Assembly: GCA_026713545.1 (NCBI GenBank) | Contig: JAPOOG010000032.1 | Location: 8,379-72,378, forward strand | Length of the DNA: 64,000 nucleotides | Reading direction: 5' to 3' | Source of the DNA: Bryobacterales bacterium | GTDB lineage: Bacteria; Acidobacteriota; Terriglobia; Bryobacterales; UBA6623 | Shown: piece by piece, positions 8,685-61,996 of the stretch | Numbering within the stretch: the stretch's first letter is position 1 | Layout: each line of letters opens with the position of its first letter | Translations under genes and position numbers: made by a program | Notes under the pieces: model-generated | What the model was told of the DNA's origin: nothing | Databases searched by the model: none | Seen by the model: the letters and a program-made list of their open reading frames with translations, nothing else

Positions 8685-11543
8685 TCAGTACACGTATAAG
8701 AATTCGTTGGAGTTGAACAGCGCCAGAGCCAGATCGGCCCAGGCGCGTATGCCGGGCGGCATCTCGCTCGGGTGCGGATTGTGCTCGTAAGGGCCGGTAT
8801 AAGCGGGCTGAACGAATTCGAAGCGTTCTCCGGTCAGCTCGCTTGTGATGGTGTGGACGATGTCCGTCGGCAATCGTCGGGCAGCAGCGGGGTTCCCCTC
8901 AAGGTGCGCCGTCATCTCCGCAACGAACTCTTCCGTCCAATCGCGCTCCTCGCTCGTGGGATCGCGGCCGAATGCCAGTCGAAATGCGCTCTCGACGCGC
9001 ATCCCCGCGGGCAAGGAATCCAGGCGCTGCGCCATGATCAGCGCCATGTCGCGCGACAGATCGGCATTGAGCAGGGCGAACGCCTGGGTCGGCACGGTGG
9101 ATGATTCCCGGCGCTCGCAGGTCAGGTCCGGATTTGCGCCGTTGAACACCTCGATCATGGGGTCCATCATGCTGCGCCGCTGGAAACTGTAAACGGAACG
9201 GCGGTTGCGTCTCCGCCGGGTCGGCTCGGCTTCGTAGACCGGCTGGAGGGTTCCCATCGCATGCCTCGGCTGGTGCGCTACTTCCGGATTGATCTGGGCG
9301 TACGTGCCGGGTCCGCCCGCGAAGTCGCTCAACTCGCCGGCAACCGCCATCATGCTGTCGCGAATTTCCTCGGCTTCCAGCCGGCGGGGTGAGAACCGCG
9401 CCAGGTAGATGTTCTCGGGGTCGAGCTTGTCCACCAACTCACGGTTCTGGTGATCGCTGGCTCGCCGGTACGCCTCCGAATACAGGATCACTCGATGGAC
9501 TGCCTTTACGCTCCAGCCCTGGTCAATGAAGAATACCGCCAGCCAATCCAACAGCTCCGGGTGCGAGGGCTTCTTTCCCATCTTTCCGAAGTTGTTCGCG
9601 TTCGAAGCCAGCCCGCGCCCGAAATGGTATTGCCAGACGCGATTGACCAGAACCCGGCTGGTCAGCGGATTGTCTGGATCCGCGATCCAGCGGGCCAGCG
9701 CGCTTCGCCGTCCGCTCAGGCGGTCCGGGATCTGCGGAGCCGGCAGATCGGAATAGCGCGCCACCGCTTCGAGCACACCTGGTGAAACCTCCTGCCCGGG
9801 CGCCTGGATGTCGCCTCCGGCCAGAACATGGGTTTTTGCTCGGGCATAGTCCCCCGGCTGCAAGTAGCTGTTCCGATACCTCAGGGCCTCCCATTCCTGG
9901 ACATAGCCGTTGCTGACCGTCATGGCCAGAGGCTCGAACCGCAACACGGACAGCTTGTGCATGATCACTCGCTTCCGCAGCAGCTTGAGCAGCTCAGCCT
10001 GCTCACTGCTCAGGTAACGCTGCAGCGTAGTGGTCCGGGCGTTGGCGGCGGCTTCGGGTCCCTTTGCCCGCGCGAGTCGCTCGCGGGCCGCTTCGTGGAG
10101 GTCGTGCATCCGGCGTTCCAGCTCTTCCAGGCGGGTCTGGATAGGCTTGCGGCCCTGGTCGAAGCCTTCCGTCGATTCTGACGGCAGGAACGGCAACGGG
10201 CGCCTCGCGAAAGCCGTCTTCGCGAAGACGGCTTGCATGCGGTAATAGTCCTTGGTGGGGATCGGGTCGAACTTGTGGTCGTGGCAGCGGGCGCAAGCCA
10301 GCGTCACCCCCAGGAACGACTGCCCCACGTGGTGCGTCACGTCGTCCAGGAAGAGCTGCCGGGTCACCGCCGCGACGGCCATGCCGGTATGCTCCCAAGG
10401 CCCCATCCTGAGAAAGCCGGTCGCAAGAATCGCCTCGGGATCGTCCGGGAACAACTCGTCGCCGGCGATCTGCTCGAGCACGAAGCGGTCGTATGGCTTG
10501 TCGCTGTTGAATGCGCGGATGACGTAGTCCCGGTAGCGCCAGGCATTGGGCCGCACGAAGTCATTGGAGTAGCCGGCGGTATCGGCGTAGCGCGTCACGT
10601 CGAGCCAATGACGCCCCCAACGCTCGCCATAGCGGGGAGAGTCCAGCAAGCGCTCGACGACTTTCTTGTAGGCCCCTTCGGATTCGTCGTCCAAAAAAGC
10701 CTGCACCTCTCCCGGAGTCGGAGGCAGGCCCGTCAGGTCGAACGTCAAACGCCGGATGAGCGTTCTCCTGTCGGCTCTCGGAGCCGGTTCGAGTCCCTTC
10801 TCTGCCAGACGGGCCAGGACAAAGCTGTCCACCGGAGTCTGCACGGCAGCCGGGTCTATCCTGCATTTCTCCCCACGCGGCGAGGTGAAGTGCGTGAGAG
10901 GGCCGTCAGGACGAGGCGCGAGCCGCTTGGCGCGCGCAGGCGTACTTGACCGTACGTCGAGCACGGCACGCAAGCGCAACGAAGTCATGGCGGTCGTATC
11001 GCGTGCTTCGGCCGTCGGGTGGGGAGAAAGGCAGGATATCCCTTCGGTTGGGGGCTCGACGCGCTTCACCGGCCGGAACGCCCAGATGTCGCCTTCCTCG
11101 AAATTCCACTTCGCCGTCGAGCGCCCATCCGCATAAGGGGCTCCCGCTGTGATCCATGCGCGGAATGCGTCCCGGGTCTCTTGGGGAAGCTGCTTCTCCG
11201 GCCCTCCGGGTGGCATGGCCAGCTCGCCGGCATGATCTATGGCCGACATCAGCAAGCTGTCGCCGGGCGATCCGCTCTCGATGGCCGGGCCTCGCTGACC
11301 GCCCTTCAGTGCGGCGTCCCGAGTGCGCAGGTCAAGATTGGCGAAGACGTTCCCTTCGCCGTGGCAGCCCAAGCATTGCTGCTTCAGCACCGGCTGGATG
11401 GTGTTGCGGAACAGTTCGGCAGGAGAATCCGCGGCGGCGGCTGAAGTCGCTCCAACCAAGCCGGAAAGGAAAATCAGGCCTGACCGCAGGAAACGAAGTC
11501 CTGACCCCGCACGGACCGCTTTCGATCGGTATCGTCGCCGCAT
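8685..11543 (-). CDS. PSCyt1 / DUF1549 (PSCyt2) / DUF1553 (PSD1) multidomain protein, carrying an in-frame repeat-element insertion
   Basis: Heme-like 'CLGCHG' near the N-terminus, then DUF1549-like 'PVDSFVLARLAEKGLEPAPRADRRTLIRRLTFDLTGLPPT', 'CARCHDHKFDP', and a DUF1553-like C-terminal part. Start set at the ATG at 11543 ('MRRRYRSK...'); the ORF is open to 11615. Confidence 0.85.
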   Translation of the reverse strand: MRRRYRSKAVRAGSGLRFLRSGLIFLSGLVGATSAAAADSPAELFRNTIQPVLKQQCLGCHGEGNVFANLDLRTRDAALKGGQRGPAIESGSPGDSLLMSAIDHAGELAMPPGGPEKQLPQETRDAFRAWITAGAPYADGRSTAKWNFEEGDIWAFRPVKRVEPPTEGISCLSPHPTAEARDTTAMTSLRLRAVLDVRSSTPARAKRLAPRPDGPLTHFTSPRGEKCRIDPAAVQTPVDSFVLARLAEKGLEPAPRADRRTLIRRLTFDLTGLPPTPGEVQAFLDDESEGAYKKVVERLLDSPRYGERWGRHWLDVTRYADTAGYSNDFVRPNAWRYRDYVIRAFNSDKPYDRFVLEQIAGDELFPDDPEAILATGFLRMGPWEHTGMAVAAVTRQLFLDDVTHHVGQSFLGVTLACARCHDHKFDPIPTKDYYRMQAVFAKTAFARRPLPFLPSESTEGFDQGRKPIQTRLEELERRMHDLHEAARERLARAKGPEAAANARTTTLQRYLSSEQAELLKLLRKRVIMHKLSVLRFEPLAMTVSNGYVQEWEALRYRNSYLQPGDYARAKTHVLAGGDIQAPGQEVSPGVLEAVARYSDLPAPQIPDRLSGRRSALARWIADPDNPLTSRVLVNRVWQYHFGRGLASNANNFGKMGKKPSHPELLDWLAVFFIDQGWSVKAVHRVILYSEAYRRASDHQNRELVDKLDPENIYLARFSPRRLEAEEIRDSMMAVAGELSDFAGGPGTYAQINPEVAHQPRHAMGTLQPVYEAEPTRRRRNRRSVYSFQRRSMMDPMIEVFNGANPDLTCERRESSTVPTQAFALLNADLSRDMALIMAQRLDSLPAGMRVESAFRLAFGRDPTSEERDWTEEFVAEMTAHLEGNPAAARRLPTDIVHTITSELTGERFEFVQPAYTGPYEHNPHPSEMPPGIRAWADLALALFNSNEFLYVY
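10860..11036. mobile_element. 177-bp TIR element, copy A, inserted in-frame in the PSCyt/DUF1553 gene
   Basis: Termini are CCTGCATTTCTCCCCAC ... GTGGGGAGAAAGGCAGG and the flanks are TAT/aTAT. Homologous to the copy at 55475-55651 and, partially, to 44489-44666, 30366-30450, 58036-58576 and 61880-61996. Confidence 0.8.
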
Positions 11544-25938: not shown

Positions 25939-25963
25939 ACTGAAGCCCTTCAGTCTTTTTTTC
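25939..25963 (+). terminator. Terminator-like hairpin + T-run carried on a repeat module
   Basis: ACTGAAG-CCC-CTTCAGT followed by CTTTTTTT. The same module occurs inverted at 54541-54566. Confidence 0.45.
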
Positions 25964-26150
25964 CCGCCCCGGTCGGCATAGCATGAGCACAGAGAGGCTA
26001 ACGAACGACCTGCCGTCGGCGCGGCGCTCGCCTCTGGCGGCTGCCCCCCACGACGGCAACACGGCTTTCCCCGCCGTGGATGCGCAAGGGTCGCGCCACC
26101 GGAAACTGCCGTCCGGGCCACTGCGCCAGCCGGCAAGTCACCGTTCTTCA

Positions 26151-26206
26151 GTTCACGATTGTTCACCATTGTTCGCCATTGTTCGCCATTGTTCGCCATT
26201 GTTCAC
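26151..26206. repeat. 10-bp tandem repeat, about 5.6 units (GTTCRCSATT)
   Basis: GTTCACGATT GTTCACCATT GTTCGCCATT GTTCGCCATT GTTCGCCATT GTTCAC, read directly from the sequence. Confidence 0.9.
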
Positions 26207-26445
26207 TAAAAAAATATTGCCCCTGCGCCACTGTCGTTGCCCCGTCCGCCGTTCTCGGTCGGCCTTACGACGAGCCTCGCCACCGGGCAGCTCCCGCTGC
26301 GGCGAACACAAAATGAAGCCATGCCGAGAAAAGGGAACATTCCAGCCTGCATTGACTGGAGTCGTGGACACTTTGCACCGGGAGGCTTAGAGTAGAGGTA
26401 CGCTGGAGGGCCGTCTGTTGCGGCCTTTCCGGGAAAGGGGAGTTC

Positions 26446-27687: not shown

Positions 27688-27775
27688 CCGGAAACATTCT
27701 CTTGATCAAGCGGCATTGACAGCGGTCCGGATGTTTCCTGCTGGTATGATCCGTGTGCGGGCGGAGAAAAAAATA
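27685..27775. repeat. 85-89 bp hairpin element, copy 3 (intergenic, directly upstream of paralog 3)
   Basis: 'TGACCGGAAACATTCTCTTGATCAAGCGGCATTGACAGCGGTCCGGATGTTTCCTGCTGGTATGATCC...GGCGGAGAAAAAA'. It starts at the stop codon of paralog 2 and ends about 12 nt before the AGGAG RBS of paralog 3. Confidence 0.8.
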
Positions 27776-27787
27776 AAAGGAGCGGCC

Positions 27788-29056
27788 ATGAACTTCAATC
27801 GAAGATCGTTTCTTGCGGGAAGCGTCGCGGCGTCCGTGGCGTCGCAGCTCGGGTGCGGTCAGGAAAGTGATGCCGCGCCGGTGCTCGGAGACCTCGACAG
27901 CGCGCGCCGCGACTTCCCGCGGTCCGCGAACGGCGTGTACATGAATCACGCCTCGCAGCACACCCTCAGCGTACAATCGGCTCGGGCAATCCAGCGGTAC
28001 GCCGACTACCTTGCGAACGAATGCTCGCGAGCCGGTTGGTACGAGGTGTCGGACGATGCAAAGGCGCTTGGCGGCGCATACAAGCGCGAAGTCAAGGAGA
28101 TGTTCGCCAGGCTGATCAATGCCCGGCCGTCTGAGATCGCCTTCTGCCTGAGCACGACCGTCGGCGAGAACATGGTCGTGAACGGCATGGGCATTCAGGA
28201 GTCCGGCGGCAATGTCGTAACGAACGATTTGCACTATTCGAGCTGCCTGTACAACTACAAGATGCGCCAGCAGCGTGGTCTTGACGTGCGCATCGTCAAG
28301 CACAGAGACTGGCGGCTCGACCCGGCCGACTTCGAAACCCTCATCGACGACAAGACGAAGCTTGTCGCGCTGACGCTGGTTTCGAACGTCAACGGATTGC
28401 TCGCCCCGGTGAAGGAGATCGCCGGCATCGCGCATCGCAACGGCGCTTATGTCTACGCGGACATCATCCAGGCCTGCGGAGCCGTGCCCATCGACGTACA
28501 AGCCATGGGGATCGACTTTGCCGCCTGCTCGACCTACAAGTGGCTGATGGGACTGCGCGGTTTCGCCTACCTCTACATCAAGGAGGACCTGCAGGGAACC
28601 GTCGTGCAGCCCACGCAGTTCGGAGGAGGCGTGAGCTTCAACTACGAGCCCTGGGTCGAAAATCCCGACTCCGGCAGTGGCGAGATCGTCTACCGGCCGA
28701 AGCAGATGGCTTCCCAGTACGAAGTGGGCAACGTATCGAGTGTCGGATGCGTTTGCCAACAGGAGGCTCTGAACTTCATCCACCGGGTCGGCGTGGATGA
28801 GATTCAGGCGCACGCGACTCCCCTGACCGAGTTCCTGCAAGAGGAGATGCCGAAGATCGGGTATGCTTCGATCACTCCGAGTGGCAATCGAAGCCCGATC
28901 ACGACGTTTCGCGTCCCTGATCCGAAAGAGGCCGAGCGGCGGCTCAAGGAAGCCCATATCGAGGTGACGCTGCGGTTCGGTAATCAGATGCGCGTATCGG
29001 TGTCGGTGATGAACAACCAGCAGGATGTCGAGGCTTTGGTGGCGGCGCTGGCGTAA
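27788..29056 (+). CDS. Aminotransferase class-V-fold PLP-dependent enzyme, Tat signal + lipobox (paralog 3 of 4)
   Basis: 'MNFNRRSFLAGSVAASVASQLGCGQ' and 'CSTYKWLMGLRGFAY'. AAGGAG RBS. Confidence 0.85.
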   Translation: MNFNRRSFLAGSVAASVASQLGCGQESDAAPVLGDLDSARRDFPRSANGVYMNHASQHTLSVQSARAIQRYADYLANECSRAGWYEVSDDAKALGGAYKREVKEMFARLINARPSEIAFCLSTTVGENMVVNGMGIQESGGNVVTNDLHYSSCLYNYKMRQQRGLDVRIVKHRDWRLDPADFETLIDDKTKLVALTLVSNVNGLLAPVKEIAGIAHRNGAYVYADIIQACGAVPIDVQAMGIDFAACSTYKWLMGLRGFAYLYIKEDLQGTVVQPTQFGGGVSFNYEPWVENPDSGSGEIVYRPKQMASQYEVGNVSSVGCVCQQEALNFIHRVGVDEIQAHATPLTEFLQEEMPKIGYASITPSGNRSPITTFRVPDPKEAERRLKEAHIEVTLRFGNQMRVSVSVMNNQQDVEALVAALA

Positions 29057-29092
29057 ATGAAATGCGGCCGACTCGATCGATGGAGAAACCCT

Positions 29093-30352
29093 ATGAACTT
29101 TGATCGACGCGATTTCCTGGCCGGTTCCGCCACGCTCGGCTCCGGCATGTTCTTTGGTTGCAGTGCGGCGGATTCCAAGATCGCCGACACTGCGCTCACG
29201 GCCGAAAATGCCGACTTCGCAACCGCCCGAGCTGCTTTCCCCTGGTCAACGAAGCAGGTCTGGCTGAACAACGCCGGCCGGCATCCCTGTGGTGTTCACT
29301 CCGTCAACGCGGCCCGCGGGTATCTCGACTACATCCTTGATGGTCCGGGAAACGGCGCCGGCTTCGGAGAAAAGCAGTTCCACGATGTGAAGGCGTTGTA
29401 CGGCGAGCTCATCAACGCCAAGGCGTCGGAAATCGCGCTCGTGCAAAGCACGCTGATCGGCGAGAACCTCGTCGCTCTCGGTCTGGGCCTGCACGACGGC
29501 AAGGGCAACGTCGTCACCGACGAGCTGCACTATCACGGCGGAAGCTATATCTATCGCCGCCTGCAGGACGCCGGGCTCGAATTGCGGATCATCAAGCAGA
29601 AAGACTGGCAAGTCACTCCTGAGGAGTACGAGCGGGTGATCGACAACGACACGAAGCTCGTCTCGCTAACCCTGGTTTCGAACATCAACGGGTTTCTCTA
29701 CGACTCCAAGGCCATCAGCGAGATCGCGCATGCCAACGGCGCCTACGTTTATGCCGACGTCGTCCAGGCGGCCGGCTGCGTTCCCGTGGACATGCGGGCC
29801 ATGGGGATCGACTTCTGCTCGGCTTCGACCTACAAGTGGCTGATGGGGATGCGCGGCCTGGGGTTGTTCTACGTGCGGGAAGAGCTTCAGGGCGGCGTGC
29901 TCAAGCCGGTGATGTACGGGGACAAGCAATACTCGAACTTCGAGTTCCACTACTTTCCGGGGAGCCCGCCGGGCGAGACGCCGATCAGCTATCAACCGCG
30001 CGGCGGGGCGCAAATATATGAGGTCGGCAACGTCTCGAACATCGCCGGGGCGGCGCAGCGCGAGGCGCTCAAGTACATCCTCAAGCTCGGTGTCGACAAC
30101 ATCCTCGCCCATGCCAAGCCCATGTGCGACAAGCTGATCGAGGAGTTGCCGAAACTTGGTTACCCTTGCATCACGCCGCCGGGCAGCCCCACGCCCATCA
30201 CGGCTTTTCTCGTCGAGAACCCCGAAGAAACCAGCGCCAGATTGAGAGCCGCCAAAGTCGCTGCCAAGGTCAAGTGGAAACAGATGCGTGTCTCGCCCTC
30301 CGTCTTCAACACGATGGCCGACGTGGACCAATTGCTGGATGCGTTATCCTGA
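29093..30352 (+). CDS. Aminotransferase class-V-fold PLP-dependent enzyme, Tat signal + lipobox (paralog 4 of 4)
   Basis: 'MNFDRRDFLAGSATLGSGMFFGCSA' and 'ASTYKWLMGMRGLGL'. Confidence 0.85.
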   Translation: MNFDRRDFLAGSATLGSGMFFGCSAADSKIADTALTAENADFATARAAFPWSTKQVWLNNAGRHPCGVHSVNAARGYLDYILDGPGNGAGFGEKQFHDVKALYGELINAKASEIALVQSTLIGENLVALGLGLHDGKGNVVTDELHYHGGSYIYRRLQDAGLELRIIKQKDWQVTPEEYERVIDNDTKLVSLTLVSNINGFLYDSKAISEIAHANGAYVYADVVQAAGCVPVDMRAMGIDFCSASTYKWLMGMRGLGLFYVREELQGGVLKPVMYGDKQYSNFEFHYFPGSPPGETPISYQPRGGAQIYEVGNVSNIAGAAQREALKYILKLGVDNILAHAKPMCDKLIEELPKLGYPCITPPGSPTPITAFLVENPEETSARLRAAKVAAKVKWKQMRVSPSVFNTMADVDQLLDALS

Positions 30353-30365
30353 CCGGTCGTATGAG

Positions 30366-30683
30366 CCTGTATTTCTCATCACGTGGCGAGACGAAGTGCG
30401 TGAGAGGGCCGTCAGGACGAGGCGCGAGCCGCTTGGCGCGCGCAGGCGTAGCGGCCATATTGCCTCCTTTGGCCTTCGGGTCACGAAACATGAGACACGG
30501 CCTTTACGGTTCACCGCCCGTCAGACATTTCTTTCGAGAACGAACCAGGCCCCCCGCCAGGGTTTTTCAAGAATCACGGCCTTGTACGCAAGCCGCCTTG
30601 GAGCGACAGCCGTACCGCCCGCCTGGGTTTTGGGGTCACGAATCACGCGACACGAGACACGAAACACGGCCTTTTAATGCAGG
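30366..30683. repeat. Long-form composite element B (one arm of the 177-bp element + S-core module + heptamer words)
   Basis: Starts CCTGTATTTCTCATCACGTGGCGAG...GCCGCTTGGCGCGCGCAGG (arm shared with copies A and D). Continues with the S-core 'CCGTCAGACATTTCT' at 30496-30568, then 'CACGAATCACGCGACACGAGACACGAAACACGG', and ends ...TTAATGCAGG. Fills almost the whole 361-bp intergenic gap. Confidence 0.75.
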
Positions 30684-43598: not shown

Positions 43599-44495
43599 CT
43601 ACGTTTTGCGGATGTCTCTGTGAGAGACCTTCACTTCGCATCCAGCGCCCGTGAGGTTGCGGCCGACCGCATCCGCGATCATCACCGAGCGATGCCGGCC
43701 CCCCGTGCAACCGAATGCAATCGTCAGGTAGCTCTTGCCCTCACGCACGTAATGGGGGACGAGATACAGCAGCAGGTCGGAAATCCGGCCGATGAACTCC
43801 CCGGTCTGCGGAAACGACCGTACGTACCGAATGACCTTCGGATGCTTGCCGGAAAGATTCTTGCAACCCGGCACATAGTGCGGGTTCGGCAGGAACCGAA
43901 CATCGAAAACCAAGTCGCTGTCGCTTGGCAAGCCGTGTTTGAAACCGAAGCTGTTCACCGTGACGAGCAGTTGCGGTCTGTCTTGAGCGCTCTGGAATCG
44001 CGTTACGATCAGACGCCTCAGATCGTGAATGTTGAACTGCGACGTATCGAGAATCAGATCCGCAAGCTTTTGAATGGATCGTAGCGCCTGCCTCTCCGCC
44101 CGGATGCTGTTGAGGACGGACGTACCCGTGCCCAGCGGGTGTGGTCGACGTGTCTCACTGAAGCGCCTTTGTAGAACGTCGTCCGCGGCTTCAAGAAACA
44201 GCAGAAACACACGATTCTGCCTCCTCAGTTCCTGAAAGATTCCGGGAAACTTCTTGAGGGCCCGGCCTTCACGAATATCGACCACCAGAGCGGCCCGGGA
44301 GATTTCCGGAGAGTGTCTACAGAGCTCGGCGAAGGTCGGGATCAAGTCAATCGGCAGATTGTCGACGGCATAGAAACCCATATCCTCAAAGACCTTCAGC
44401 ACAGAGACTTTGCCCGAGCCGCTAAGTCCGGTCAGGATGACGAGTTCGTATGCCCCGCCCGGCGCTTCCCCCGCGCTGCTTGTCTCAGCCGTCAT
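43599..44495 (-). CDS. rapZ: RNase adapter protein RapZ (P-loop NTPase, YhbJ family)
   Basis: Walker A 'GLSGSGKVSVLKVFEDMGFYAVDNLP' and C-terminal 'IAFGCTGGRHRSV'. Confidence 0.9.
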   Translation of the reverse strand: MTAETSSAGEAPGGAYELVILTGLSGSGKVSVLKVFEDMGFYAVDNLPIDLIPTFAELCRHSPEISRAALVVDIREGRALKKFPGIFQELRRQNRVFLLFLEAADDVLQRRFSETRRPHPLGTGTSVLNSIRAERQALRSIQKLADLILDTSQFNIHDLRRLIVTRFQSAQDRPQLLVTVNSFGFKHGLPSDSDLVFDVRFLPNPHYVPGCKNLSGKHPKVIRYVRSFPQTGEFIGRISDLLLYLVPHYVREGKSYLTIAFGCTGGRHRSVMIADAVGRNLTGAGCEVKVSHRDIRKT

Positions 44496-44666
44496 TTCTC
44501 ACCCACCTGACGGCAGAAGCACGCGATACGACGTTCATGACTTCGTTGCGCACGCTTACTGTGCTCAATGTTAAGGGCAAGTACACCTGCGCGTGCCAAG
44601 CCGCTCGCGCCACGTCCTGACGGCCCTTTCAGGCACCTCACCTCCCCACGTGATGAGAAAGGTCGG
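44489..44666. repeat. Degenerate copy C of the 177-bp TIR element, between hpf and rapZ, overlapping the rapZ start codon
   Basis: 'CCGTCATTTCTCACCCACCTGACGGC...GCCAAGCCGCTCGCGCCACGTCCTGACGGCCCTTTCAGGCACCTCACCTCCCCACGTGATGAGAAAGGTCGG' aligns along its length with copy D. The CAT (ATG of rapZ) at 44493-44495 lies in the left terminus. Confidence 0.7.
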
Positions 44667-44719
44667 CTAGCCGGCTCCGTCTTGCGACGATAAGCGCTCA
44701 TAATGGCTGCGAAGAGTGC

Positions 44720-51568: not shown

Positions 51569-52032
51569 GTGAGGAATTGTATCGCTGCAAACGCCGGTCT
51601 GGCCAACCGGTTGATTCTTTGTCTTCAGGGCCGGAATCGCCTCACTTCATCGATGTCCGAGGAACTTCCTGCCGACTCCATAGAGAGACTCAGGGCCAGG
51701 AATCAATCTCTCCCGGACCCTCACAACAAGCTGCCGCTAGAGACCAACCCGCGCCTTCAAGCCGCCGAGATCGGCGACGATGGCGCTCTAACCACCGACC
51801 TCGACGCGGGTCTTGCGAATTTCCGTGGAACGGCCCTCGGAAAAAGTCACGGCAGAATCGTATCTCCGGTTTCTGCAGGGCGGCGCACGAAAGTTTTCTC
51901 TCCGCCTGCGAACCAAGGCTACGTTACCAAGACGAGCCAGGCATCCCGTTCATGCACATGACGAACTGCACGGCCTTTCGCGAGCTGGCGATTCAATAGG
52001 CAGCACACCTCCGCCCGAGCCACAGGGGCTTG

Positions 52033-53985
52033 TCACGCTTCCGATTCCAACTTTTCGGTGAGTTGCGTCCACTCCTGCTCATGGTCCTCCGCCTCCGCGC
52101 GCAGATTTTCCATCCGCGTCACGATTCCTGCCGATCGCTGGTGGTTCTTCGAGTTCGCCACGAGGCTTTCCTGCAGCTCGCCGACCTCGCTCTCGATACG
52201 GCTGATCTCGGTTTCCAGGTCGGCCACGCGCGCCCGAAGCTTCTCCGCCTGAATCGGGTTCATCCGCCGCTTTTTCTGTGCGGCGCCGTTCCGGCGGGCC
52301 TGCTCATCCTCGGTGAACCGCAGCGCGGCCTTGAGCGACTCACTGACGTCTTCGCCGGGGGTCCGTTCGCCTGGACCCGCCGCGCGCCCGGCCTGCCACA
52401 GGTAGTCCTCGTAGTTGCCCAGATAGGCGACCACCTCGCCGCTACCGATCGCGAACACTTTTGTCGCCAGCTTATCGATGAAGTAGCGGTCGTGGGAAAC
52501 AAACGCCACTGTTCCGGTAAAGTCAAGCAGTGCCTTGAGCAGAACGTCCTTGGCGCGCATGTCGAGATGGTTCGTCGGCTCGTCAAGAAGCAGGAAGTTG
52601 CTCGGCTTGACCAGCACCCGCGCCAGGGCATAGCGATTCCGTTCGCCGCCCGACAACACTCCGATCGGCTTGTAGACGTCATCTCCCGAAAACAGAAAGC
52701 ATCCCAGCAGCCCCCGCAACTCGCTGTCACTCGAGCGCGGAACGAGGCGCGTCAGATCGTCGAGAATACTCGCCTCCGGGTCGAGCACCTTGTACTGGTC
52801 CTGCGCGAAGTAATCGATCCCGACCTTGTGACCGATCGTTGGTACTCCCGCCGTCAAGGGCTCCTCGCCAGCAAGCATCCGTATCAAGGTGGATTTCCCC
52901 GCACCGTTTTCTCCCACCAAGGCGATCCGGTCGCCTCGTTCGATCGTGAAGTTCACGTCCTTCAGCACTTCCAGCGAACCGTAGCTTTTCGCCACGCCGC
53001 GAAACTGCGCCACGACCCGGCCGCTGCCCGCCGGCTGCGGAAACTTGAAGTGAATCGTCTGCGTTTCCCGCGGGACCTCGATGCGCTCGATCTTCTCCAG
53101 TTCCTTGACCCGGCTCTGCACCTGCGCCGCCTTCGTCGCCTGGTACCGGAAGCGGTTGATAAACGTTTCGAGGTGGTGAATCCGGTCCTGCTGATTCCTG
53201 TACGCAGCCTTGATCTGCTCGAGCCGCTCGCGCTTCTGGGTCTGATACTTCGAGTAGTTGCCCGTATAGAAGTTGACCTTCCTGTTCCACACCTCGATGA
53301 TCTTCCTGACCGTGACATCGAGAAAGTAACGGTCGTGCGAGACCACCAGAAACGCGTAAGGGTAACTCCCCAGGTACTCTTCCAGCCAGTTCCGCGCTTC
53401 GAGATCAAGGTGGTTCGTCGGCTCGTCGAGCAGCAGCAGGTTGGGCTTCTCGAGCAGCAGCTTGGCCAGAGCGATGCGCATCTGCCAACCGCCGGAAAAC
53501 TCCTCGATCGGCCGCTCCCAGTCATGCTTGGGAAACGTCAACCCGTCGAGGACAGTCCCCACCTGCGCTTCCTTCGTGTAGCCGTCGAGCGCCTGATAGC
53601 GGTCGATCACCCACTGGAACCGATCCGTCACGGCGCCGTATTCGGCGCCGTCCGGGTCCAGTTCACTCATCTTGCGGGCCAGGTCTTCCTGCTCTTTCTC
53701 AAGCGCAATGGCCTCGTCAAACACGCTCAGGCACTCGTCGAACAGCTTTCGCCCGGCCAGGCTCAGCCCGTCTTGCGGCAGATAGCCGATCTGCAAGCCC
53801 CTCTGCCGCGTCATCCCGCCTGCATCGAGGTGCTCGATCCCGGCCAGGATTTTCAGCAGCGTCGTCTTGCCGCTGCCGTTCTCCCCGACGATGCCAATGC
53901 GGTCTTGCGGTCCGACGAGCCAATCCAGCCCCTCGAACAAAGCCTGCCCGCCGTAGCGCATCGCCCCGCCGGAAATCTGAATCAT
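52033..53985 (-). CDS. ABC-F family ATPase (two ABC domains, C-terminal coiled coil)
   Basis: Two Walker A motifs ('GENGSGKTT', 'GENGAGKST'), two signature motifs ('FSGGWQMR', 'LSGGERNR'), no TM segments, and a helical Arg/Glu-rich tail. Confidence 0.9.
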   Translation of the reverse strand: MIQISGGAMRYGGQALFEGLDWLVGPQDRIGIVGENGSGKTTLLKILAGIEHLDAGGMTRQRGLQIGYLPQDGLSLAGRKLFDECLSVFDEAIALEKEQEDLARKMSELDPDGAEYGAVTDRFQWVIDRYQALDGYTKEAQVGTVLDGLTFPKHDWERPIEEFSGGWQMRIALAKLLLEKPNLLLLDEPTNHLDLEARNWLEEYLGSYPYAFLVVSHDRYFLDVTVRKIIEVWNRKVNFYTGNYSKYQTQKRERLEQIKAAYRNQQDRIHHLETFINRFRYQATKAAQVQSRVKELEKIERIEVPRETQTIHFKFPQPAGSGRVVAQFRGVAKSYGSLEVLKDVNFTIERGDRIALVGENGAGKSTLIRMLAGEEPLTAGVPTIGHKVGIDYFAQDQYKVLDPEASILDDLTRLVPRSSDSELRGLLGCFLFSGDDVYKPIGVLSGGERNRYALARVLVKPSNFLLLDEPTNHLDMRAKDVLLKALLDFTGTVAFVSHDRYFIDKLATKVFAIGSGEVVAYLGNYEDYLWQAGRAAGPGERTPGEDVSESLKAALRFTEDEQARRNGAAQKKRRMNPIQAEKLRARVADLETEISRIESEVGELQESLVANSKNHQRSAGIVTRMENLRAEAEDHEQEWTQLTEKLESEA

Positions 53986-54924
53986 GCCTCCAGTTTATCG
54001 TCGAAGCTGCTGAATTCCGTCTCCTCAGACATGGATGTCAACTCCCAGCATGGTTCATTCACCGCGAATGGACACGAACCAACACGAATGAGGGGCGTTT
54101 TCGCCGCGGAGGCGGGAGCTGTGCGCCAATTCGCGTCCACAGTAGCGGGTCCAGCCCGGAGGTCGACGGGAGCGGCGGTGAACGGCGCTCGTCGTGAGGC
54201 CGACCGCGAGCGGCGGACGGCGCGCCGGCACTGGCACAGATGCAATATTTTTTGCCGGGAAATAGTGGGCAATACCGGGAAATAGTGGGCAGGCAAGCAG
54301 TGGCTGGGCTGCGGGCGTGGCAGCCTGACCTGCATCTCTACCCGCCCGGCGTCCGAAGCACGCGAGGTAAAGGCCGTGATTCGTGTTTCGTGATTCGTGA
54401 AAAGCATAAAAGCCGTGATTCGTGTCTCGTGAAAAACCTTAAAAGCAGTGGCTAGTGAAAGCCTTGAAAGCTCTGATTCGTGACCCGCACCGACTGTGCC
54501 TCGTTGCCTCCCTGTCCTCATGCTATGCAGGCCGGGGAAGAAAAAAAAGACTGAAGGGCTTCAGTACCTAGAGGTATTAAAAAAACCGTGATTCGTGTTT
54601 CGTGATTCGTGAAAAACACTGGTGAGGCCTCGTTCGCTCCAGAAGAAATGTCTGACGGCCGTTGAACCGTAAAGGCCGTGTTGCCGTCGTGGGGGGCAGC
54701 CTCTACAGCGAGCGCCTCGCCGTTCACGGTGCTACGCGGGCCGTTCTCGGCGCCAAGCAGGATTTCACCACGGACTGCCAGCTCACCGGGGAACTTCCTA
54801 CATTGCGCCGACACTCCGCAGACATGAAGCTCGTTACCTCACCGCAGACTTCCAGCCGCGCCTGACGAAAATACCAAGCAGCTTTCACCTCGCCTGCCCT
54901 CTCGCAGCACCTATCTGCTAACTT
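53986..54924. repeat. Mosaic intergenic repeat zone 4 (inverted relative to zone 1; includes a 20-bp x2 repeat, heptamer words, the hairpin module and an S-core)
   Basis: Components are 54170-54250 (reverse complement of roughly 26200-26290), 54255-54294 (CCGGGAAATAGTGGGCA x2), 54371-54480 (GTGATTC/GTGTTTC words), 54518-54625 (reverse complement of roughly 25891-25985), the S-core at 54611-54680, and 54700-54790 (reverse complement of roughly 25585-25640). Confidence 0.8.
54541..54566 (-). terminator. Terminator-like hairpin + T-run (minus strand) on a repeat module
   Basis: The plus strand reads AAAAAAAAGACTGAAGGGCTTCAGTAC, which on the minus strand is a hairpin followed by T8. Confidence 0.4.
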
Positions 54925-55461: not shown

Positions 55462-57930
55462 ATGAAGCCCTTAGCCTGCATGTCTCACCACCCGACGGCC
55501 GCAGCACGCGATAAGACCGCCATGACTTCGTTGCGCTTGCTTGCCGTGCTCGACGTACTGTCAAGTACACTTGCGCGCGCCAAGCGGCTCGCGCCTCGTC
55601 CTGACGGCCCTCTCACGCACTTCACCTCGCCGCGTGGTGAGACATGCAGGCTAGCCGGGTTCGTATTGCATTTGCTGTTTTGCACCGTTGCCGCGGCAAG
55701 CGTGACCGTTGTCGTGGAAGATCCCGGCGGTGACCGCATCGCGGGCGCGCGAGTCGCCCTGCAAACTTCTGTGGGGCGTGAGATCGAAACGCGCCGTACG
55801 TCCGACGCCGGTGAAGCCTCCTTCGAGGGAAATCAAGCCGGCCGCATCGTCGAGGTCGCCGCCGACGGTTTCGAGCCCCAGCTCGTTCTCGTCCCCGACG
55901 ACGAAACGCTCGTTGTCCGCCTGGCGATCGCGACGGTGGCCACCACGATCGAAGTCGAAGCCGAAGCGGAGCCCACCGTCGCCGTCCAGGAAACCGACGC
56001 CTCCGAGCTGGCAGCGATCCCCTCGACCGATCTCATCGAAAATCTGCGCGCCACCCCGGGAGTGAGCGTGCTGCGCCGAGGCGCCACCAACATCGAACCG
56101 GTCGTCGAAGGCCTGCGCGAAACCCAGCTCGCCATGGTCGTCGACGGCACCCGCACCTTCGCCGCCGGCCCTGCCCGCATGGACTCCGAGCTGAGTCACG
56201 TCGAGCCGGGCCACATCAGCAGCGTCGAAGTCGTCACCGGTCCCTACGCCCTGACCAAGGCCGCCGGCGCATTCGGCGCCATTCTGGTGACTTCGCCACA
56301 GGTTCCCCGCTTTGACCGCTGGCAGTTCGGAGGCGGAACCGGCAGCGGCTATCGCAGCAACGGCTCCGGCCGCTACGGACGAGCTCGCCTGTTCGCGGGA
56401 GACAACCGCTTCGGATTCAGCTTGCGCGCCGCGGGCAACCAGGGCAATGACTACCGGGCCGGCGACCGTGGACCGATCAAGGACATCACCATCCCCGGCG
56501 ACTTCAGCAATCACCAGTTCGGCGGCAAGCTGCGCTTCAACCCGGCCAGCAAGCAGGAGATCGCGCTTGGCGGTTTCTACGACGAGCAGACCGGAGTCGA
56601 CTACCCCGGCCGGCTGCTCACCGCCGAGCACTTCATTCTGCGATCGTTCTCCGGCAACTACTACGCCGCCAACCCGGCAGACGGCATCACCGCCATCAAG
56701 GGCAACCTCTACCTCAACAAGAAAAGCCACCGCATGAGCAACCGCGAAAAGCCAACAGCGCTCCCGATGATGGGCCGAAAACCTCCCTTCGCACTCGACG
56801 TAGCACTCCCCACGGAAGCCGATACGCTGGGCGGCTCCGGCAGTGTCGAGTTCGCCCTCACGGAGACGTGGCGGCTGCAGACGGGCTTCGACTTCTACCA
56901 CCTCAGCCAAGACGCGCAACGCTTCGTCGCCCGTCAAGACGACGGCCGGCTGCTCTTCAGCGATGCCGTATGGCCCGACGCCACCATCAACGACCAGGGC
57001 GTTTACGTGCAGACCGTGGGCGCGTTCGAGCGCGGCGAGGTTGCCGCCGGCGCGCGCGCCGATTTCGTGCAGGCCGACGCCGGACGCCCTTCGGACTTCT
57101 TTCTCGCCAACGCCGGCCACGGGATCGACCGTAACGAAACGAATTTCAACGCCAGCCTCGCGGGCCGCTACCGCCTCATCGACGGCGTCTCTCTCTCCGC
57201 CGGAGTGGGCAACGTGCGGCGCACGGCGAACGCGCTGGAGCGCTTCTCCGACCGCTTTCCGAGCACCCGTTTCCAGATCGCAGCCGAGTTCATGGGCCTA
57301 CCGACGATCCAGCCGGAATCCAGCACGCAAGGCAACCTGAACGTCGACGTTACGGTCCGCGACTTCCGGTTCAGCGCCGGCGGTTTCCTCCGCCGCATCA
57401 ACGACTACATCACGGTCCGCCCCGACCCCGACCTGCCGAAACGCCTGCCGCTCAGCCCTGCCGTCGTCTTCCGGTACATCAACGGCGACCACGCGACGTT
57501 CCGCGGCTACCAGTTGGGCGCGGAATACCGCGGTTCGCGCTGGTTCCAGTTCCGCAGCCGGGCCGCCAAGGTCATCGCCGATGACCGCGAGCTCAACGAG
57601 CCCGTCCTCGGCATCGCGCCCTTCGAGCTCTACTCCAGCGTACGCATCCTCGAACCGTCAGGGCGATTCTGGAGCGAGTATTCCGTCCGCAATGTCTGGG
57701 ACCAGCAGCGGGTTTCGATCAGACGCCTCGAAACCCCGTCACCCGGCTTCAGCACGCACGACCTGCGTATTGGAGTGGAAGTACATAAAAAGATCAAGCT
57801 GCACTTCGGACTCGAGAACCTGGGCGACAAGCACTATTTCGAGCACCTGAACTCGCCCAACCCATTCACTCGCCAACGGATCCCCGAGCCCGGCCGCACG
57901 GTTTACCTCAGCCTGACCACCGACTGGTGA
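55462..57930 (+). CDS. TonB-dependent receptor (CarbopepD_reg-like domain + plug + barrel) with the 177-bp element inserted in-frame in its signal-peptide region
   Basis: GGGGAGG RBS then ATG at 55462. 'VTVVVEDPGGDRIAGARVAL', plug 'VSVLRRGATNIEPVVEGLRETQLAMVVDG', and a C-terminal '...VYLSLTTDW'. Confidence 0.85.
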   Translation: MKPLACMSHHPTAAARDKTAMTSLRLLAVLDVLSSTLARAKRLAPRPDGPLTHFTSPRGETCRLAGFVLHLLFCTVAAASVTVVVEDPGGDRIAGARVALQTSVGREIETRRTSDAGEASFEGNQAGRIVEVAADGFEPQLVLVPDDETLVVRLAIATVATTIEVEAEAEPTVAVQETDASELAAIPSTDLIENLRATPGVSVLRRGATNIEPVVEGLRETQLAMVVDGTRTFAAGPARMDSELSHVEPGHISSVEVVTGPYALTKAAGAFGAILVTSPQVPRFDRWQFGGGTGSGYRSNGSGRYGRARLFAGDNRFGFSLRAAGNQGNDYRAGDRGPIKDITIPGDFSNHQFGGKLRFNPASKQEIALGGFYDEQTGVDYPGRLLTAEHFILRSFSGNYYAANPADGITAIKGNLYLNKKSHRMSNREKPTALPMMGRKPPFALDVALPTEADTLGGSGSVEFALTETWRLQTGFDFYHLSQDAQRFVARQDDGRLLFSDAVWPDATINDQGVYVQTVGAFERGEVAAGARADFVQADAGRPSDFFLANAGHGIDRNETNFNASLAGRYRLIDGVSLSAGVGNVRRTANALERFSDRFPSTRFQIAAEFMGLPTIQPESSTQGNLNVDVTVRDFRFSAGGFLRRINDYITVRPDPDLPKRLPLSPAVVFRYINGDHATFRGYQLGAEYRGSRWFQFRSRAAKVIADDRELNEPVLGIAPFELYSSVRILEPSGRFWSEYSVRNVWDQQRVSIRRLETPSPGFSTHDLRIGVEVHKKIKLHFGLENLGDKHYFEHLNSPNPFTRQRIPEPGRTVYLSLTTDW
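55475..55651. mobile_element. 177-bp TIR element, copy D (in-frame in the TonB receptor 5' end)
   Basis: CCTGCATGTCTCACCAC ... GTGGTGAGACATGCAGG, with flanks TTAG / cTAG. Removing 180 bp gives 'MKPLAGFVLHLLFCTVAAASV', a normal signal peptide. Confidence 0.8.
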
Positions 57931-58035
57931 GACTCATCACGGAGCCCCATCGCCGGGTCTTCACTCCGGGAGCGCCGCTTTTCACGCTTCGGCGGAATCG
58001 GCAACCTCGCGAGACAGTCGCGAGAAAGGGATCAT

Positions 58036-58576
58036 CCTGCATTTCTCACCACCGACGGCCGAAGCACACGAGGAAAAGGCCGTGGTTAGTGGTTAGTGGT
58101 TAGTTATTAGTGAAAAACCTTTGGCGGGGGCTTGGTCCGCTCCAGAAGAAATGTCTGACGGCCAGCGAACCGTAAGGCCATGATTCGTGCTTCATGACCC
58201 GAGGGCCGAAAGAGGCGAGATGGCCGCTAGCAGCCCGTGGTGAAAGTCACGCGGGCGGCGTTACGCGCCTTGGGGTCGATTGCGCAACGTGTGGCTGCTC
58301 CAGTAACGCAGCACCGCGCTCTCCGAGCAACCGAGCGGAAGGGGCGCGTGACCCGTTGGGCGACGGACATTTGCAGTCGTCGGCTTTGTCGTTCGTCGGA
58401 GGAGATCACCCGGACCGCCATGCTCCTCACTCCGCGCCGAGCAACCGCAGGAGCCCGCCGCGCCTTCCACGGGACTTCCACCACGGACTGCTAGGCCTGC
58501 GCGCGCCCAGCGGCTCGCTCCTCGCCCTGACGGCCCTCTCACACACTTCACCTCGCCGCGTGGTGAGAAATGCAGG
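58036..58576. repeat. 541-bp composite element E bounded by both TIRs of the 177-bp family and flanked by ATCAT direct repeats
   Basis: Left end CCTGCATTTCTCACCAC (58036). Right end GTGGTGAGAAATGCAGG (ends 58576). ATCAT lies immediately outside both ends. The interior carries GTGGTTA heptamers (58081-58112), an S-core (58112-58182) and extra modules. Confidence 0.75.
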
Positions 58577-58705
58577 ATCATCACAGGAACCGCAACGGCT
58601 CTTCGTGCTTTCGCCTGGCTGTGGCGCTCTGCCGCTCTCTTCTGCAAGGCCACAGAAGAGCTCGACGATCTATAGGAATCTGCGACTCGCCTTGCCAAGC
58701 AGGCT

Positions 58706-60418: not shown

Positions 60419-60834
60419 TGCGGAGAAGTGTATCACGCGGGGGGTCGCAGACAGCGAATAAAGGCCGTGATTCGTGATTCGTGTCTCGTGAAAAACATTG
60501 GTGGGGGCCTGGTTCGCTCCAGAAGAAATGTCTGACGGCAGATGAACCGGAAAGGCCGTGTGTCGTGTCAAAAACCCGTGTTTCGTTTCTCTTGTCTCGT
60601 GTTTCGTGAAGCGAAAGGCGGAAAGGACGTGATGCGTGATGCGAAAAACCTTTGGGTGACGGACGTTTTTGTTCCGAGACCACGAATGGACACGAATCAA
60701 CACGAAGGGAGGGGTGTTTTATTGCGCCGGCGGTGATGCGGGCAAGCGCCCAGAGGGCACCCGCGCGCTACCAGGGCTCCACGCCTTCCACGGGATTTTT
60801 TACCACCACCACGGGCTGTTATGTCTTTGGGATA
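60419..60834. repeat. Mosaic intergenic repeat zone 6 (heptamer words, S-core, 'CACGAATGGACACGAA' module, 'ATGCGGGCAAGCGCCCAGAGGGCAC' module)
   Basis: S-core at 60490-60560. Word tracts at 60466-60490 and 60556-60660. The 60681-60790 stretch shares modules with 54060-54100 and, inverted, with 25790-25850. Confidence 0.75.
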
Positions 60835-61749: not shown

Positions 61750-61996
61750 CCTGCATTAAAGGCCGTGTTTCGTGACTCGTGACTCGTGTCTCGTGTCTCG
61801 TGAAAACCGTTGGCGGGGGTCTAGTTCGCTCTCGAAAGAAATGTCTGACGGTCGGTGAACCGTAAAGGGCGTGTTTCGTGAACCGAGGGGTGAAGGAGGC
61901 GATATGGCCACTACATCTGCGCGCGCCCAGCGGGGCTCACCTCGCCCCGACGGCCCTCTCACGAACTTCGCCTCGCCACGCGGCGAGAAATACAGG
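61750..61996. repeat. Long-form composite element F (heptamer words + S-core + one arm of the 177-bp element)
   Basis: Starts CCTGCATTAAAGGCCGTG. Words GTGTTTC/GTGACTC/GTGTCTC at 61764-61802. S-core at 61802-61873. Arm '...GCGCGCGCCCAGCGGGGCTCACCTCGCCCCGACGGCCCTCTCACGAACTTCGCCTCGCCACGCGGCGAGAAATACAGG'. Begins 15 nt upstream of the ATG at 61734. Confidence 0.75.

What the first reader, a model, noticed from the sequence alone, without database searches (positions are those of the whole stretch)
58036..58576. Composite 'long forms' show the 177-bp element is one member of a modular family that sits in promoter-proximal DNA
Element E (541 bp) has both family TIRs, is flanked by ATCAT direct repeats, and carries about 365 bp of extra modules internally.

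Elements B (30366-30683) and F (61750-61996) keep only one arm of the 177-bp element ('...GTGAGAGGGCCGTCAGG.CGAGG.G.GAGCC.CT.GGCGCGCGC...'). That arm is joined to an S-core module (conserved 'GAAAAAC..TTGG.GGGGG..T.GTTCGCTC.AGAAGAAATGTCTGACGG....TGAACCG.AAAGGCCGTG') and heptamer words. Their other end is CCTGCATTAAA(A)GGCCGTG, which mimics the first 8 nt of the TIR.

B ends 30 nt before the PD40/PHP gene start. F begins 15 nt upstream of the NMT1-like gene ATG. Native promoters for these genes must therefore lie in or beyond the repeats. I could find no transposase in the window.
Basis: seen in the sequence. Interest (0 to 1): 0.7.

Follow-up and report, generated by a model that had tools for sequence, protein, structure and literature searches.

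The report
Nested miniature transposons between bacterial genes
The 541-bp element and its two relatives are non-coding miniature transposons (MITEs) whose ends and target-site signature match the IS1380 family of insertion sequences; one has a second MITE inserted inside it, and the class is well known although this family appears undescribed.

Summary
E (58036-58576) has perfect 17-nt terminal inverted repeats and is flanked by ATCAT on both sides. B and F keep one ~85-95-nt arm plus the S-core and heptamers, and end in CCTGCATTAAA(A)GGCCGTG.

The repeats are a dispersed family, not a local duplication. The arm motif occurs in more than 105 8-kb blocks of at least four Bryobacterales (Acidobacteriota) genomes.

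The 176/177-bp form and a ~265-300-bp "long form" share both ends but differ in the middle. Insertions duplicate a 4-bp YTAR target. IS1380-family insertion sequences from related genomes and metagenomes have the same ends (CC[C/T]G.ATTTCTCACC) and the same YTAR duplication, so they are the likely mobilisers. The window has no transposase.

- **E:** a long form carrying a second, unrelated 260-bp MITE at an internal CTAG.
- **B and F:** long forms that lost ~30 bp next to one end.
- **Empty sites:** E and B are absent from the same sites in three related genomes each, and F from two of three.

The "promoter-proximal" reading is only partly right. E lies between two gene 3' ends. B split a 35-44-nt spacer between two same-strand genes. 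No promoter or RNA signal was detected.

This is a new member of a known kind, of modest interest.

The parts
58036..58576 (.). Element E: a long-form MITE (281 bp without its passenger and one CTAG copy) carrying a nested second MITE.
   Evidence: Perfect 17/17 TIRs. With the inner element removed, E is colinear end to end with long-form copies from other genomes. E is absent from the orthologous site in L106, L107 and L108.
58031..58035 (.). Left copy of the 5-bp direct repeat ATCAT flanking E. The right copy is at 58577-58581.
   Evidence: Read directly from the sequence. The relatives have a single related stretch, GTGATG(GTC)ATCCC, at this site. The length (5 bp) and sequence differ from the family's usual 4-bp YTAR duplication.
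58036..58074 (+). E left TIR (58036-58052) plus subterminal CGACGGCCGAAGCACACGAGG. This matches the other end of the 176-bp element.
58075..58112 (+). AAAAGGCCGTG followed by a heptamer array. In E the words are the GTGGTTA variant.
   Evidence: The number of heptamers varies from 1 to 6 among copies.
58113..58184 (+). S-core module of E.
   Evidence: (family D12).
58185..58226 (+). Box between the S-core and the arm (…GACCCGAGGGCCGAAAGAGGCGAGATGGCCG). It is homologous to the GAAGGAGGCGAT(A/T)TGG box of other long forms.
58227..58494 (.). Nested second MITE ("MITE2", 58231-58490, 260 bp; TIR CAGCCCGTGGTG.AAGTC) with CTAG duplications at 58227-58230 and 58491-58494.
   Evidence: Five copies are exactly 260 bp, the others in different genomes, with YTAR-type flanks.
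58495..58576 (-). E arm, with the right TIR at 58560-58576. It is shared with the 176-bp elements, B and F.
30366..30683 (-). Element B: a long form with an extra internal module (about 30567-30636) and a shortened end (30665-30683, rc CCTGCATTAAAAGGCCGTG). The arm is at 30366-30452 and the S-core at 30489-30566.
   Evidence: B is absent from L109, L110 and L111, where the spacer is 35-44 nt. The flanks TGAG/TCAG are an imperfect repeat.
61750..61996 (+). Element F: a long form with a shortened end (61750-61767), heptamers (61768-61802), S-core (61803-61874), box (61875-61912) and arm (61913-61996).
   Evidence: F is present in L106 and absent from L107 and L108, which have ~80 nt of other sequence there. 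F has no target duplication (CTAA vs CCCA).
10860..11035 (+). Short-form copy A (176 nt), inside the PSCyt/PSD1 gene and in frame.
55475..55650 (-). Short-form copy D (176 nt), flanked by TTAG/CTAG, inserted in the signal-peptide codons of the TonB-dependent receptor gene.
   Evidence: Empty sites are seen in L106, L107 and L108.
44495..44670 (-). Short-form copy C, with degenerate ends, abutting the rapZ start codon.
54329..54682 (+). A further mosaic: a long-form left end (54329-54378), heptamer modules, and an S-core (54587-54682) with no matching right TIR.
60460..60568 (+). S-core unit lying outside any family TIR pair. It is part of a mosaic (60457-60817) that also contains a MITE2 end.

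Best explanation
E, B and F are non-autonomous DNA transposons (MITEs) of one family.

**What defines the family.**
- Its TIR is CCTGCATTTCTCACCAC.
- Its insertions duplicate a 4-bp YTAR target.
- Both traits are the signature of a subfamily of IS1380-family insertion sequences. A DDE transposase encoded elsewhere most likely moves the elements in trans. That step is inferred.

**Two main forms.** They share ~45 nt at one end and ~85-95 nt (the "arm") at the other.
- The short form is 176/177 bp.
- The long form is ~265-300 bp. Its centre is AAAGGCCGTG, then a variable heptamer array, the S-core, and a GAAGGAGG box.

**The three elements.**
- E is a long form that inserted between two convergent genes in the window's lineage. 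A second, unrelated 260-bp MITE sits in its internal CTAG.
- B and F are long forms that lack ~30 nt next to one TIR, leaving only CCTGCATT. B also carries one extra internal module.
- F's insertion was accompanied by loss of ~80 nt of flanking DNA.

**Origin of the module variety (inferred).**
- Nested insertion into YTAR sites inside older copies.
- Slippage in the heptamer array.
- Internal deletions.
- Possibly capture of neighbouring DNA when the transposase uses a poor substitute end, as described for IS1380 members.
For: **Dispersal.**
- The blocks hold 159 full-length short copies.

**Target duplication.**
- Flanks are YTAR on both sides, and 51 of 131 copies have identical 4-mers.
- For non-palindromic targets there are 16 direct pairs and 0 inverted pairs.

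**Filled and empty sites.**
- A short copy is present in L013 but absent from the window at 5859/5860.
- D, E and F were compared with L106-L108.
- B was compared with L109-L111.

**Long forms.**
- 24 copies with both TIRs and an S-core were found in other genomes, with YTAR-like flanks.
- E without its passenger aligns with them end to end.

**Nested element.** It has its own TIRs and a CTAG duplication, and further 260-bp copies occur elsewhere.

**Other nested cases.** L057 and L039 each have a short form inside an S-core.

**Candidate partner.**
- A 1.74-kb IS with a 481-aa IS1380-family transposase (NF033539, E 3e-117) has TIRs CCCGGAAATCTCACCAG and CCCGCATTTCTCACCAG (15/17 to the MITE TIR).
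- It carries a CTAG duplication and occurs in L102 and L001.
- 16 related ISs from metagenomes were examined. Most end YTAR|CC(C/T)G.ATTTCTCACC…|YTAR. L171 has CCTGGATTTCTCACCA.

**Literature.** IS1380 members capture adjacent DNA by misrecognising an end, and they carry outward promoters (PMC9330008).
Against: - No transposase and no autonomous copy lies in the window, and its own genome was not available.
- The best IS ends differ from the MITE TIR at 1-2 positions.
- Similarity beyond the 17-nt TIR is not significant (166 of 2000 shuffles reach the score).
- E's duplication is 5 bp (ATCAT) and not YTAR. B's flanks are imperfect (TGAG/TCAG). F has none.
- S-core and heptamer units also occur outside any TIR pair and next to a MITE2 end. 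The origin of the long-form centre is therefore unresolved.
- The identical short end in B and F, which differ internally, is not fully explained.
Confidence: 0.85

Rival explanations
1. The elements, or their S-core, heptamer and GAAGGAGG modules, are retained because they supply expression signals to neighbouring genes: promoters, 5'UTR elements or start sites. On this view their position next to gene starts is functional.
For: - F abuts the ribosome-binding site of the NMT1-like gene and replaced the ~80 nt that relatives have there. The gene is nonetheless intact in both genomes that carry F.
- B lies 30 nt from the PD40 gene start.
- In both B and F the shortened end faces the gene start and creates a TTTAAT motif (my reading).
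- Long forms carry GAAGGAGG followed by ATG or TTG.
- IS1380 members are known to have outward promoters (PMC9330008).
Against: - No sigma-70-like promoter was found in E, B or F.
- There is no Rfam match even at E<=1.
- The S-core has no conserved RNA fold in 44 copies.
- E lies between two gene 3' ends.
- The relatives' 35-44-nt spacer argues that the PD40 gene is co-transcribed with the upstream gene.
- The frame after the GAAGGAGG box is not kept between variants that differ by a 10-nt indel (my reading).
Confidence: 0.12
2. The long form is not a captured or recombined subfamily. It is a short form into which an independent mobile S-core/heptamer element inserted once, after which the chimera amplified. 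On this view S-core units are a third mobile family with their own mechanism.
For: - Of 45 S-core hits in the sampled DNA, 9 have neither a family TIR upstream nor an arm downstream, and 17 have only one of the two.
- One S-core sits beside a MITE2 end.
- S-core units are bracketed by direct AAAGGCCGTG repeats.
Against: - The long-form centre replaces 48 nt of the short form rather than simply interrupting it.
- S-core units show no TIRs and no consistent target duplication.
- No gene that could move them was found.
Confidence: 0.25
3. The similarities come from a local segmental duplication within this region, not from a dispersed mobile family.
Against: - More than 105 blocks spread along chromosomes of 5.8-6.3 Mb in several species carry the arm.
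- The flanking sequences of copies are unrelated.
Confidence: 0.01

Closest known systems
MITEs derived from bacterial insertion sequences, with IS1380-family elements such as ISEcp1 and ISPme1 as the putative parents
   Same: - Short, non-coding and high in copy number.
- TIRs match those of a transposase-bearing IS.
- The target duplication is the same 4-bp YTAR.
- Insertion is polymorphic between related genomes.
- IS1380 members tolerate poor second ends and capture neighbouring DNA (PMC9330008). That could explain the composite forms and the 8-nt end of B and F.
   Different: - I found no published description of an IS1380-type MITE in Acidobacteriota. This rests on a limited literature search.
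- ISEcp1 makes 5-bp duplications (my recollection), whereas this family mostly makes 4-bp YTAR ones.
- Mobilisation has not been shown.
piggyBac transposons and their MITEs (eukaryotes)
   Same: - IS1380 transposases are used as the prokaryotic outgroup of piggyBac (PMC10813416).
- piggyBac duplicates a 4-bp TTAA target (PMC10813416) and has TIRs that start with CCC (my recollection). Here the target is YTAR, which includes TTAA, and the TIRs start CCT or CCC.
   Different: - These elements are bacterial.
- The target is relaxed to YTAR, with CTAG the most common.
- No piggyBac-type transposase domain was tested.
Mosaic intergenic repeats such as pneumococcal BOX elements and enterobacterial BIMEs
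   Same: - Modules are shared among copies in different combinations.
- One internal unit varies in copy number: heptamers here, boxB in BOX (my recollection).
   Different: - Those families lack TIR plus target duplication of this kind, and they rely on hairpin-forming units.
- Here the S-core has no conserved fold, while the ends are classical transposon TIRs.
Rickettsia palindromic elements (RPEs), selfish repeats inserted in frame in protein-coding genes
   Same: Short-form copies A and D sit inside genes. Each adds 60 codons in the one frame of the element that has no stop codon.
   Different: - This applies to the short form, not to E, B or F.
- RPEs have no known transposase partner (my recollection).
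- Only two cases were seen here.

Membership tests
MITE (non-autonomous DNA transposon) | Terminal inverted repeats | tested here: met
   E has 17/17 TIRs. Family copies have CCTGCATTTCTCACCAC at both ends. B and F have one full TIR and only 8 nt of the other.
MITE (non-autonomous DNA transposon) | Target-site duplication | tested here: met
   For the family, the duplication is 4-bp YTAR. 51 of 131 copies have identical flanks, and there are 16 direct against 0 inverted non-palindromic pairs. E has 5-bp ATCAT, B has imperfect TGAG/TCAG, and F has none.
MITE (non-autonomous DNA transposon) | Small size with no transposase gene | tested here: met
   The elements are 176-541 bp. tblastn with the IS1380 transposase finds nothing in the window.
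MITE (non-autonomous DNA transposon) | Many dispersed copies with unrelated flanks | tested here: met
   More than 105 blocks in at least four genomes carry the arm. These hold 159 full short copies, plus 24 long copies outside the window.
MITE (non-autonomous DNA transposon) | Presence/absence polymorphism at orthologous sites | tested here: met
   E, B, F and D each have empty orthologous sites, and L013 has a filled site where the window is empty.
IS1380-family-derived element | TIRs match those of IS1380-family insertion sequences | tested here: met
   The L102 and L001 IS has a 15/17 match. Most of the 16 metagenomic ISs examined have CC(C/T)G.ATTTCTCACC ends.
IS1380-family-derived element | Same target duplication as the IS | tested here: met
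   The ISs are flanked by CTAG, TTAA or TTAG pairs, as the MITEs are.
IS1380-family-derived element | Sequence homology to the IS beyond the TIR | tested here: inconclusive
   Positions 18-60 of the IS right end score 1.0 against the arm, versus a shuffle mean of -4.1. 166 of 2000 shuffles reach that score.
IS1380-family-derived element | A matching autonomous IS in the same genome, and mobilisation by its transposase | not testable with these tools
   The window's own genome is not in the collections. The ISs were found in related MAGs only.
Structured regulatory RNA or known RNA family | Match to a curated model, or a conserved secondary structure | tested here: not met
   Rfam gives 0 hits at the gathering threshold and 0 at E<=1. 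RNAalifold on 44 S-core copies gives no consensus structure, and single-sequence z-scores are about 0.
Promoter-bearing mobile element | Outward-facing promoter | tested here: inconclusive
   No sigma-70 consensus site was found. However, the promoter consensus of this phylum is not covered by the tool, and no transcript data are available.

The most novel reading that the evidence does not exclude
The S-core and heptamer units may be a separate kind of module without TIRs. They would move or recombine between unrelated MITE backbones (this family and MITE2) and into bare intergenic DNA. Long forms would then be vehicles that spread these units, which in places supply expression signals to genes whose native upstream DNA they displaced, as at F.
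Probability: 0.12. Interest if true: 0.6.

Novelty: new member of a known kind. Interest (0 to 1): 0.33.

Why it matters
**What it offers.**
- It documents a very abundant MITE family in Bryobacterales genomes, about one copy per 10 kb in this window. The isolate names suggest sponge or coral hosts; that is my inference.
- It ties the family to IS1380-type transposases, the bacterial relatives of piggyBac.
- It shows how nesting, slippage and deletion build "modular" repeats.

**Practical use.** The family explains much of the odd intergenic DNA in these genomes. It also flags genes whose upstream regions or coding starts have been remodelled.

**Limit.** It does not reveal a new kind of system.

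Tried and rejected
1. **Pairs of family TIRs 1.2-1.9 kb apart as the autonomous element.**
   - The recurrent 1618-bp unit (7 copies) is an IS110-family element sitting in the centre of a short MITE, not the partner.
   - The 1882-bp pair in L102 is a MITE interrupted by the real IS1380-type IS.
2. **Homology of the arm to the IS right end beyond the TIR.** It is not significant, so I dropped the claim.
3. **S-core as an RNA.** There are no Rfam hits and no conserved fold.
4. **Sigma-70 promoter or terminator inside E, B or F.** None was found.
5. **A MITE2 TIR pair at 51831-54777 as a possible autonomous MITE2.** This is a chance match around an ABC-F ATPase gene.
6. **A genome-wide test of promoter proximity with a home-made GC3 gene finder.** It mis-called known genes, so I abandoned it.
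7. **Looking up window proteins by exact sequence to find the source genome.** They are not on record.
8. **TA-only duplication with variable terminal bases (IS630-like).** Rejected, because non-palindromic flanks are always direct repeats (16 to 0).

Full report
**1. The observation**

E (58036-58576) begins with CCTGCATTTCTCACCAC and ends with its exact reverse complement. ATCAT lies on both sides.

The window holds 8 matches to this 17-mer at 3 mismatches or fewer, against 0.17 expected by chance. It holds 5 matches to the S-core motif against 0 expected.

Self-comparison of the window confirms the following:
- Three short copies: A at 10860-11035, C at 44495-44670, and D at 55475-55650.
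- One ~85-95-nt arm of that element in each of B (30366-30683), E and F (61750-61996).
- S-core copies in B, E and F, and at 54587-54682 and 60460-60568.

**2. Dispersed or local?**

I scanned one genome per species for the arm motif GTGAGAGGGCCGTCRGGRCGAGG.
- Nearly all blocks come from four Bryobacterales (Acidobacteriota) MAGs: OZ242366.1, OZ241991.1, OZ244625.1 and RHO3_bin_12.
- The window itself is about 94% identical to part of OZ242366.1. It has 62% G+C.
- These blocks hold 159 full-length short copies.

**3. Ends and target**

In 131 copies with both ends located, the element is bounded by CCTGCATTTCTCACCAC…GTGGTGAGAAATGCAGG. It is flanked on each side by YTAR, with CTAG, TTAG, TTAA and CTAA dominating. 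In 51 copies the two 4-mers are identical.

Where the target is not palindromic, the two flanks are direct repeats in 16 cases and inverted in none. This is therefore a true 4-bp duplication.

A filled/empty pair shows mobility directly. L013 has a short copy at ATCG-TTAG[…]CTAG-GCG, where the window (5859/5860) has ATCG-TCAG-GCG.

**4. What the long forms are**

Using F as a query, I found some twenty similar elements in the other genomes. A stricter search requiring both TIRs and an S-core found 24 outside the window.

Their common plan is:
- YTAR, then the TIR
- CCGACGGyCGAAGCACGCGA
- AAAAGGCCGTG
- 1-6 heptamers (nTTCGTG)
- the S-core
- GTGTTTCGTGACCCGAGGGGTGAAGGAGGCGATTTGGCAAGTAC
- the arm, the TIR, then YTAR

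Compared with the short form, the two ends are the same but the central 48 nt are replaced by about 165 nt.

E with its passenger removed aligns with these copies from the first base to the last.

F and its ortholog in L106 align the same way, except for a gap of about 30 nt directly after CCTGCATT. B (not in that alignment) shows the same junction by inspection of the sequences. The "TIR mimic" is thus the real TIR start next to a deletion.

That short end was found only in B, in F and in F's ortholog.

**5. The inner part of E**

Positions 58231-58490 are a different repeat.
- Its TIR is CAGCCCGTGGTG.AAGTC.
- It is flanked in E by CTAG on both sides.
- Other copies of exactly 260 bp lie in other genomes with YTAR-type flanks.

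E is therefore a MITE within a MITE. Other nested cases exist: L057 and L039 each have a short form inside an S-core.

**6. Orthologous sites**

Homologs of the NMT1-like and PD40 genes led to six related loci.

| Element | Absent from | Present in | Detail |
|---|---|---|---|
| E | L106, L107, L108 | – | The site reads GTGATG(GTC)ATCCC in relatives. The window has GTGATGAT[E]ATGATCCC. |
| B | L109, L110, L111 | – | L109 is about 94.5% identical. The aminotransferase and PD40 genes are only 35-44 nt apart in the relatives. |
| F | L107, L108 | L106 | L107 and L108 have about 80 nt of unrelated sequence between CCATGACATT and the TTAGGAG ribosome-binding site. |
| D | L106, L107, L108 | – | See section 10. 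|

F thus came with a loss of flanking DNA, and it has no target duplication.

**7. The likely mobiliser**

Pairs of family TIRs more than 1 kb apart first suggested an autonomous copy. Closer inspection gave two results.
- The recurrent 1618-bp unit is an IS110-family element lying in the middle of a short MITE. It is not the partner.
- L102 contains a 1.74-kb IS itself inserted in a MITE, and L001 holds an 87.5%-identical copy.

That IS has these properties:
- It encodes a 481-aa IS1380-family transposase (NF033539, E 3e-117).
- Its ends are CCCGGAAATCTCACCAG and CCCGCATTTCTCACCAG, the latter matching the MITE TIR at 15 of 17 positions.
- It has a CTAG duplication.

I then examined sixteen related ISs from environmental metagenomes.
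- Most end in CC(C/T)G.ATTTCTCACC.
- They are flanked by CTAG, TTAA or TTAG pairs.
- L171 has CCTGGATTTCTCACCA.

The TIR type and the target duplication of the MITEs are thus the signature of this IS1380 subfamily.

Two limits apply.
- Similarity beyond the TIR is not significant.
- No such transposase is encoded in the window.

From the literature, IS1380 members capture adjacent DNA by using poor substitute ends and carry outward promoters (PMC9330008). IS1380 transposases serve as the bacterial outgroup of piggyBac, which duplicates TTAA (PMC10813416).

**8. Function of the modules**

I found no evidence that the modules are RNA or promoter elements.
- Rfam gives no match, even at E<=1.
- The S-core has no consensus fold in 44 copies.
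- No sigma-70-like promoter was detected in E, B or F.

The promoter tool does not model this phylum, so the promoter result is weak negative evidence.

S-core units also occur away from family TIRs and beside a MITE2 end. The origin of the long-form centre therefore stays open. It could be capture, recombination or an independent element.

**9. The promoter-proximal claim**

- E lies between the 3' ends of the TonB-dependent receptor gene and the amidohydrolase gene.
- B split what looks like an intra-operon spacer.
- F is the only real case. It directly abuts the ribosome-binding site of the NMT1-like gene in a divergent region.

**10. Side observations**

Short copies A and D lie inside genes. 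Each adds exactly 180 nt (176 plus a 4-bp duplication).
- Each adds 60 codons in the only stop-free frame of the element.
- D sits after codon 5 of the receptor's signal peptide.

**11. Verdict**

The thing itself is a MITE family of the IS1380 type with nested and deleted derivatives. It is a new member of a known kind, and I rate it of modest interest.

Noticed in passing
window 55475-55650 (D) and 10860-11035 (A): Two 176-nt short-form copies lie inside protein-coding genes and keep the reading frame. Each adds 176 + 4 = 180 nt, or 60 codons, in the only stop-free frame of the element. D follows codon 5 of the TonB-dependent receptor signal peptide, and relatives have an empty site. A lies between the PSCyt1 and PSCyt2 domains of a PSCyt/PSD1 protein. 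The inserted peptide contains MTSLRLLAVLDVLSSTLARA, which looks like a signal peptide.
   Followed up: partly
window 44493-44512: The rapZ ORF start codon (ATG, minus strand, 44495-44493) lies within the degenerate end of short copy C. The consensus TIR reads GGTGAGAAATGCAGG outward, so it contains an ATG.
   Followed up: no
L014 6304-7921, L058 64-1681, L063 4244-5861, L066 2231-3838, L076 2511-4128 and 4847-6464, L096 398-2050: Seven copies of an IS110-family element (357-aa transposase, NF033542 'RNA-guided transposase', E 3.5e-100) each sit at what appears to be the same central position of a short MITE (checked at base level in one copy). This suggests that the IS targets the MITE sequence itself.
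   Followed up: partly
L102 4952-6687; L001 about 356-2086: An IS1380-family IS (1.74 kb) with a CTAG duplication. In L102 it is inserted within a MITE arm. In L001 it lies directly beside a short MITE.
   Followed up: yes
window 60457-60817: The spacer between the NMT1-like gene and the amidohydrolase gene is a mosaic of a MITE2 end (60780-60817), several heptamer modules and an S-core. It replaces about 130 nt of native sequence seen in L107 and L108. L106 has a different small MITE at the same place.
   Followed up: partly
window 23629-23682, 23868-23921, 27682-27735: A 54-nt motif (TTCTGACCCGAAACATCCTCCTGATCAAGCGGCGTTGACA…) is repeated near the tandem aminotransferase paralogs (24258-30352). 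Similar sequence flanks MITEs in L023 and L089. It may be a promoter or operator box.
   Followed up: no
window 54538-54568 and 25925-25960: A hairpin next to an A/T run (ACTGAAGGGCTTCAGT beside A8 / T8), terminator-like, forms a repeat module. It is also seen in the flanks of L039 and L015.
   Followed up: no
window 26150-26205 and 54250-54290: Short tandem words of other kinds occur: GTTC(A/G)CCATT about five times, and GGGAAATAGTGGGCA twice.
   Followed up: no
L107 9963-10028: At the site where the window carries E, L107 has a different ~58-nt insert bracketed by GTGATGGTC direct repeats. The spot may therefore be hit repeatedly.
   Followed up: no
alignment A2 (F vs L106 6739-6985): Orthologous F copies differ in the number and sequence of heptamers (5 vs 4) and by an 8-nt deletion in the S-core, at about 92% overall identity. 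The heptamer array behaves like an unstable minisatellite.
   Followed up: partly
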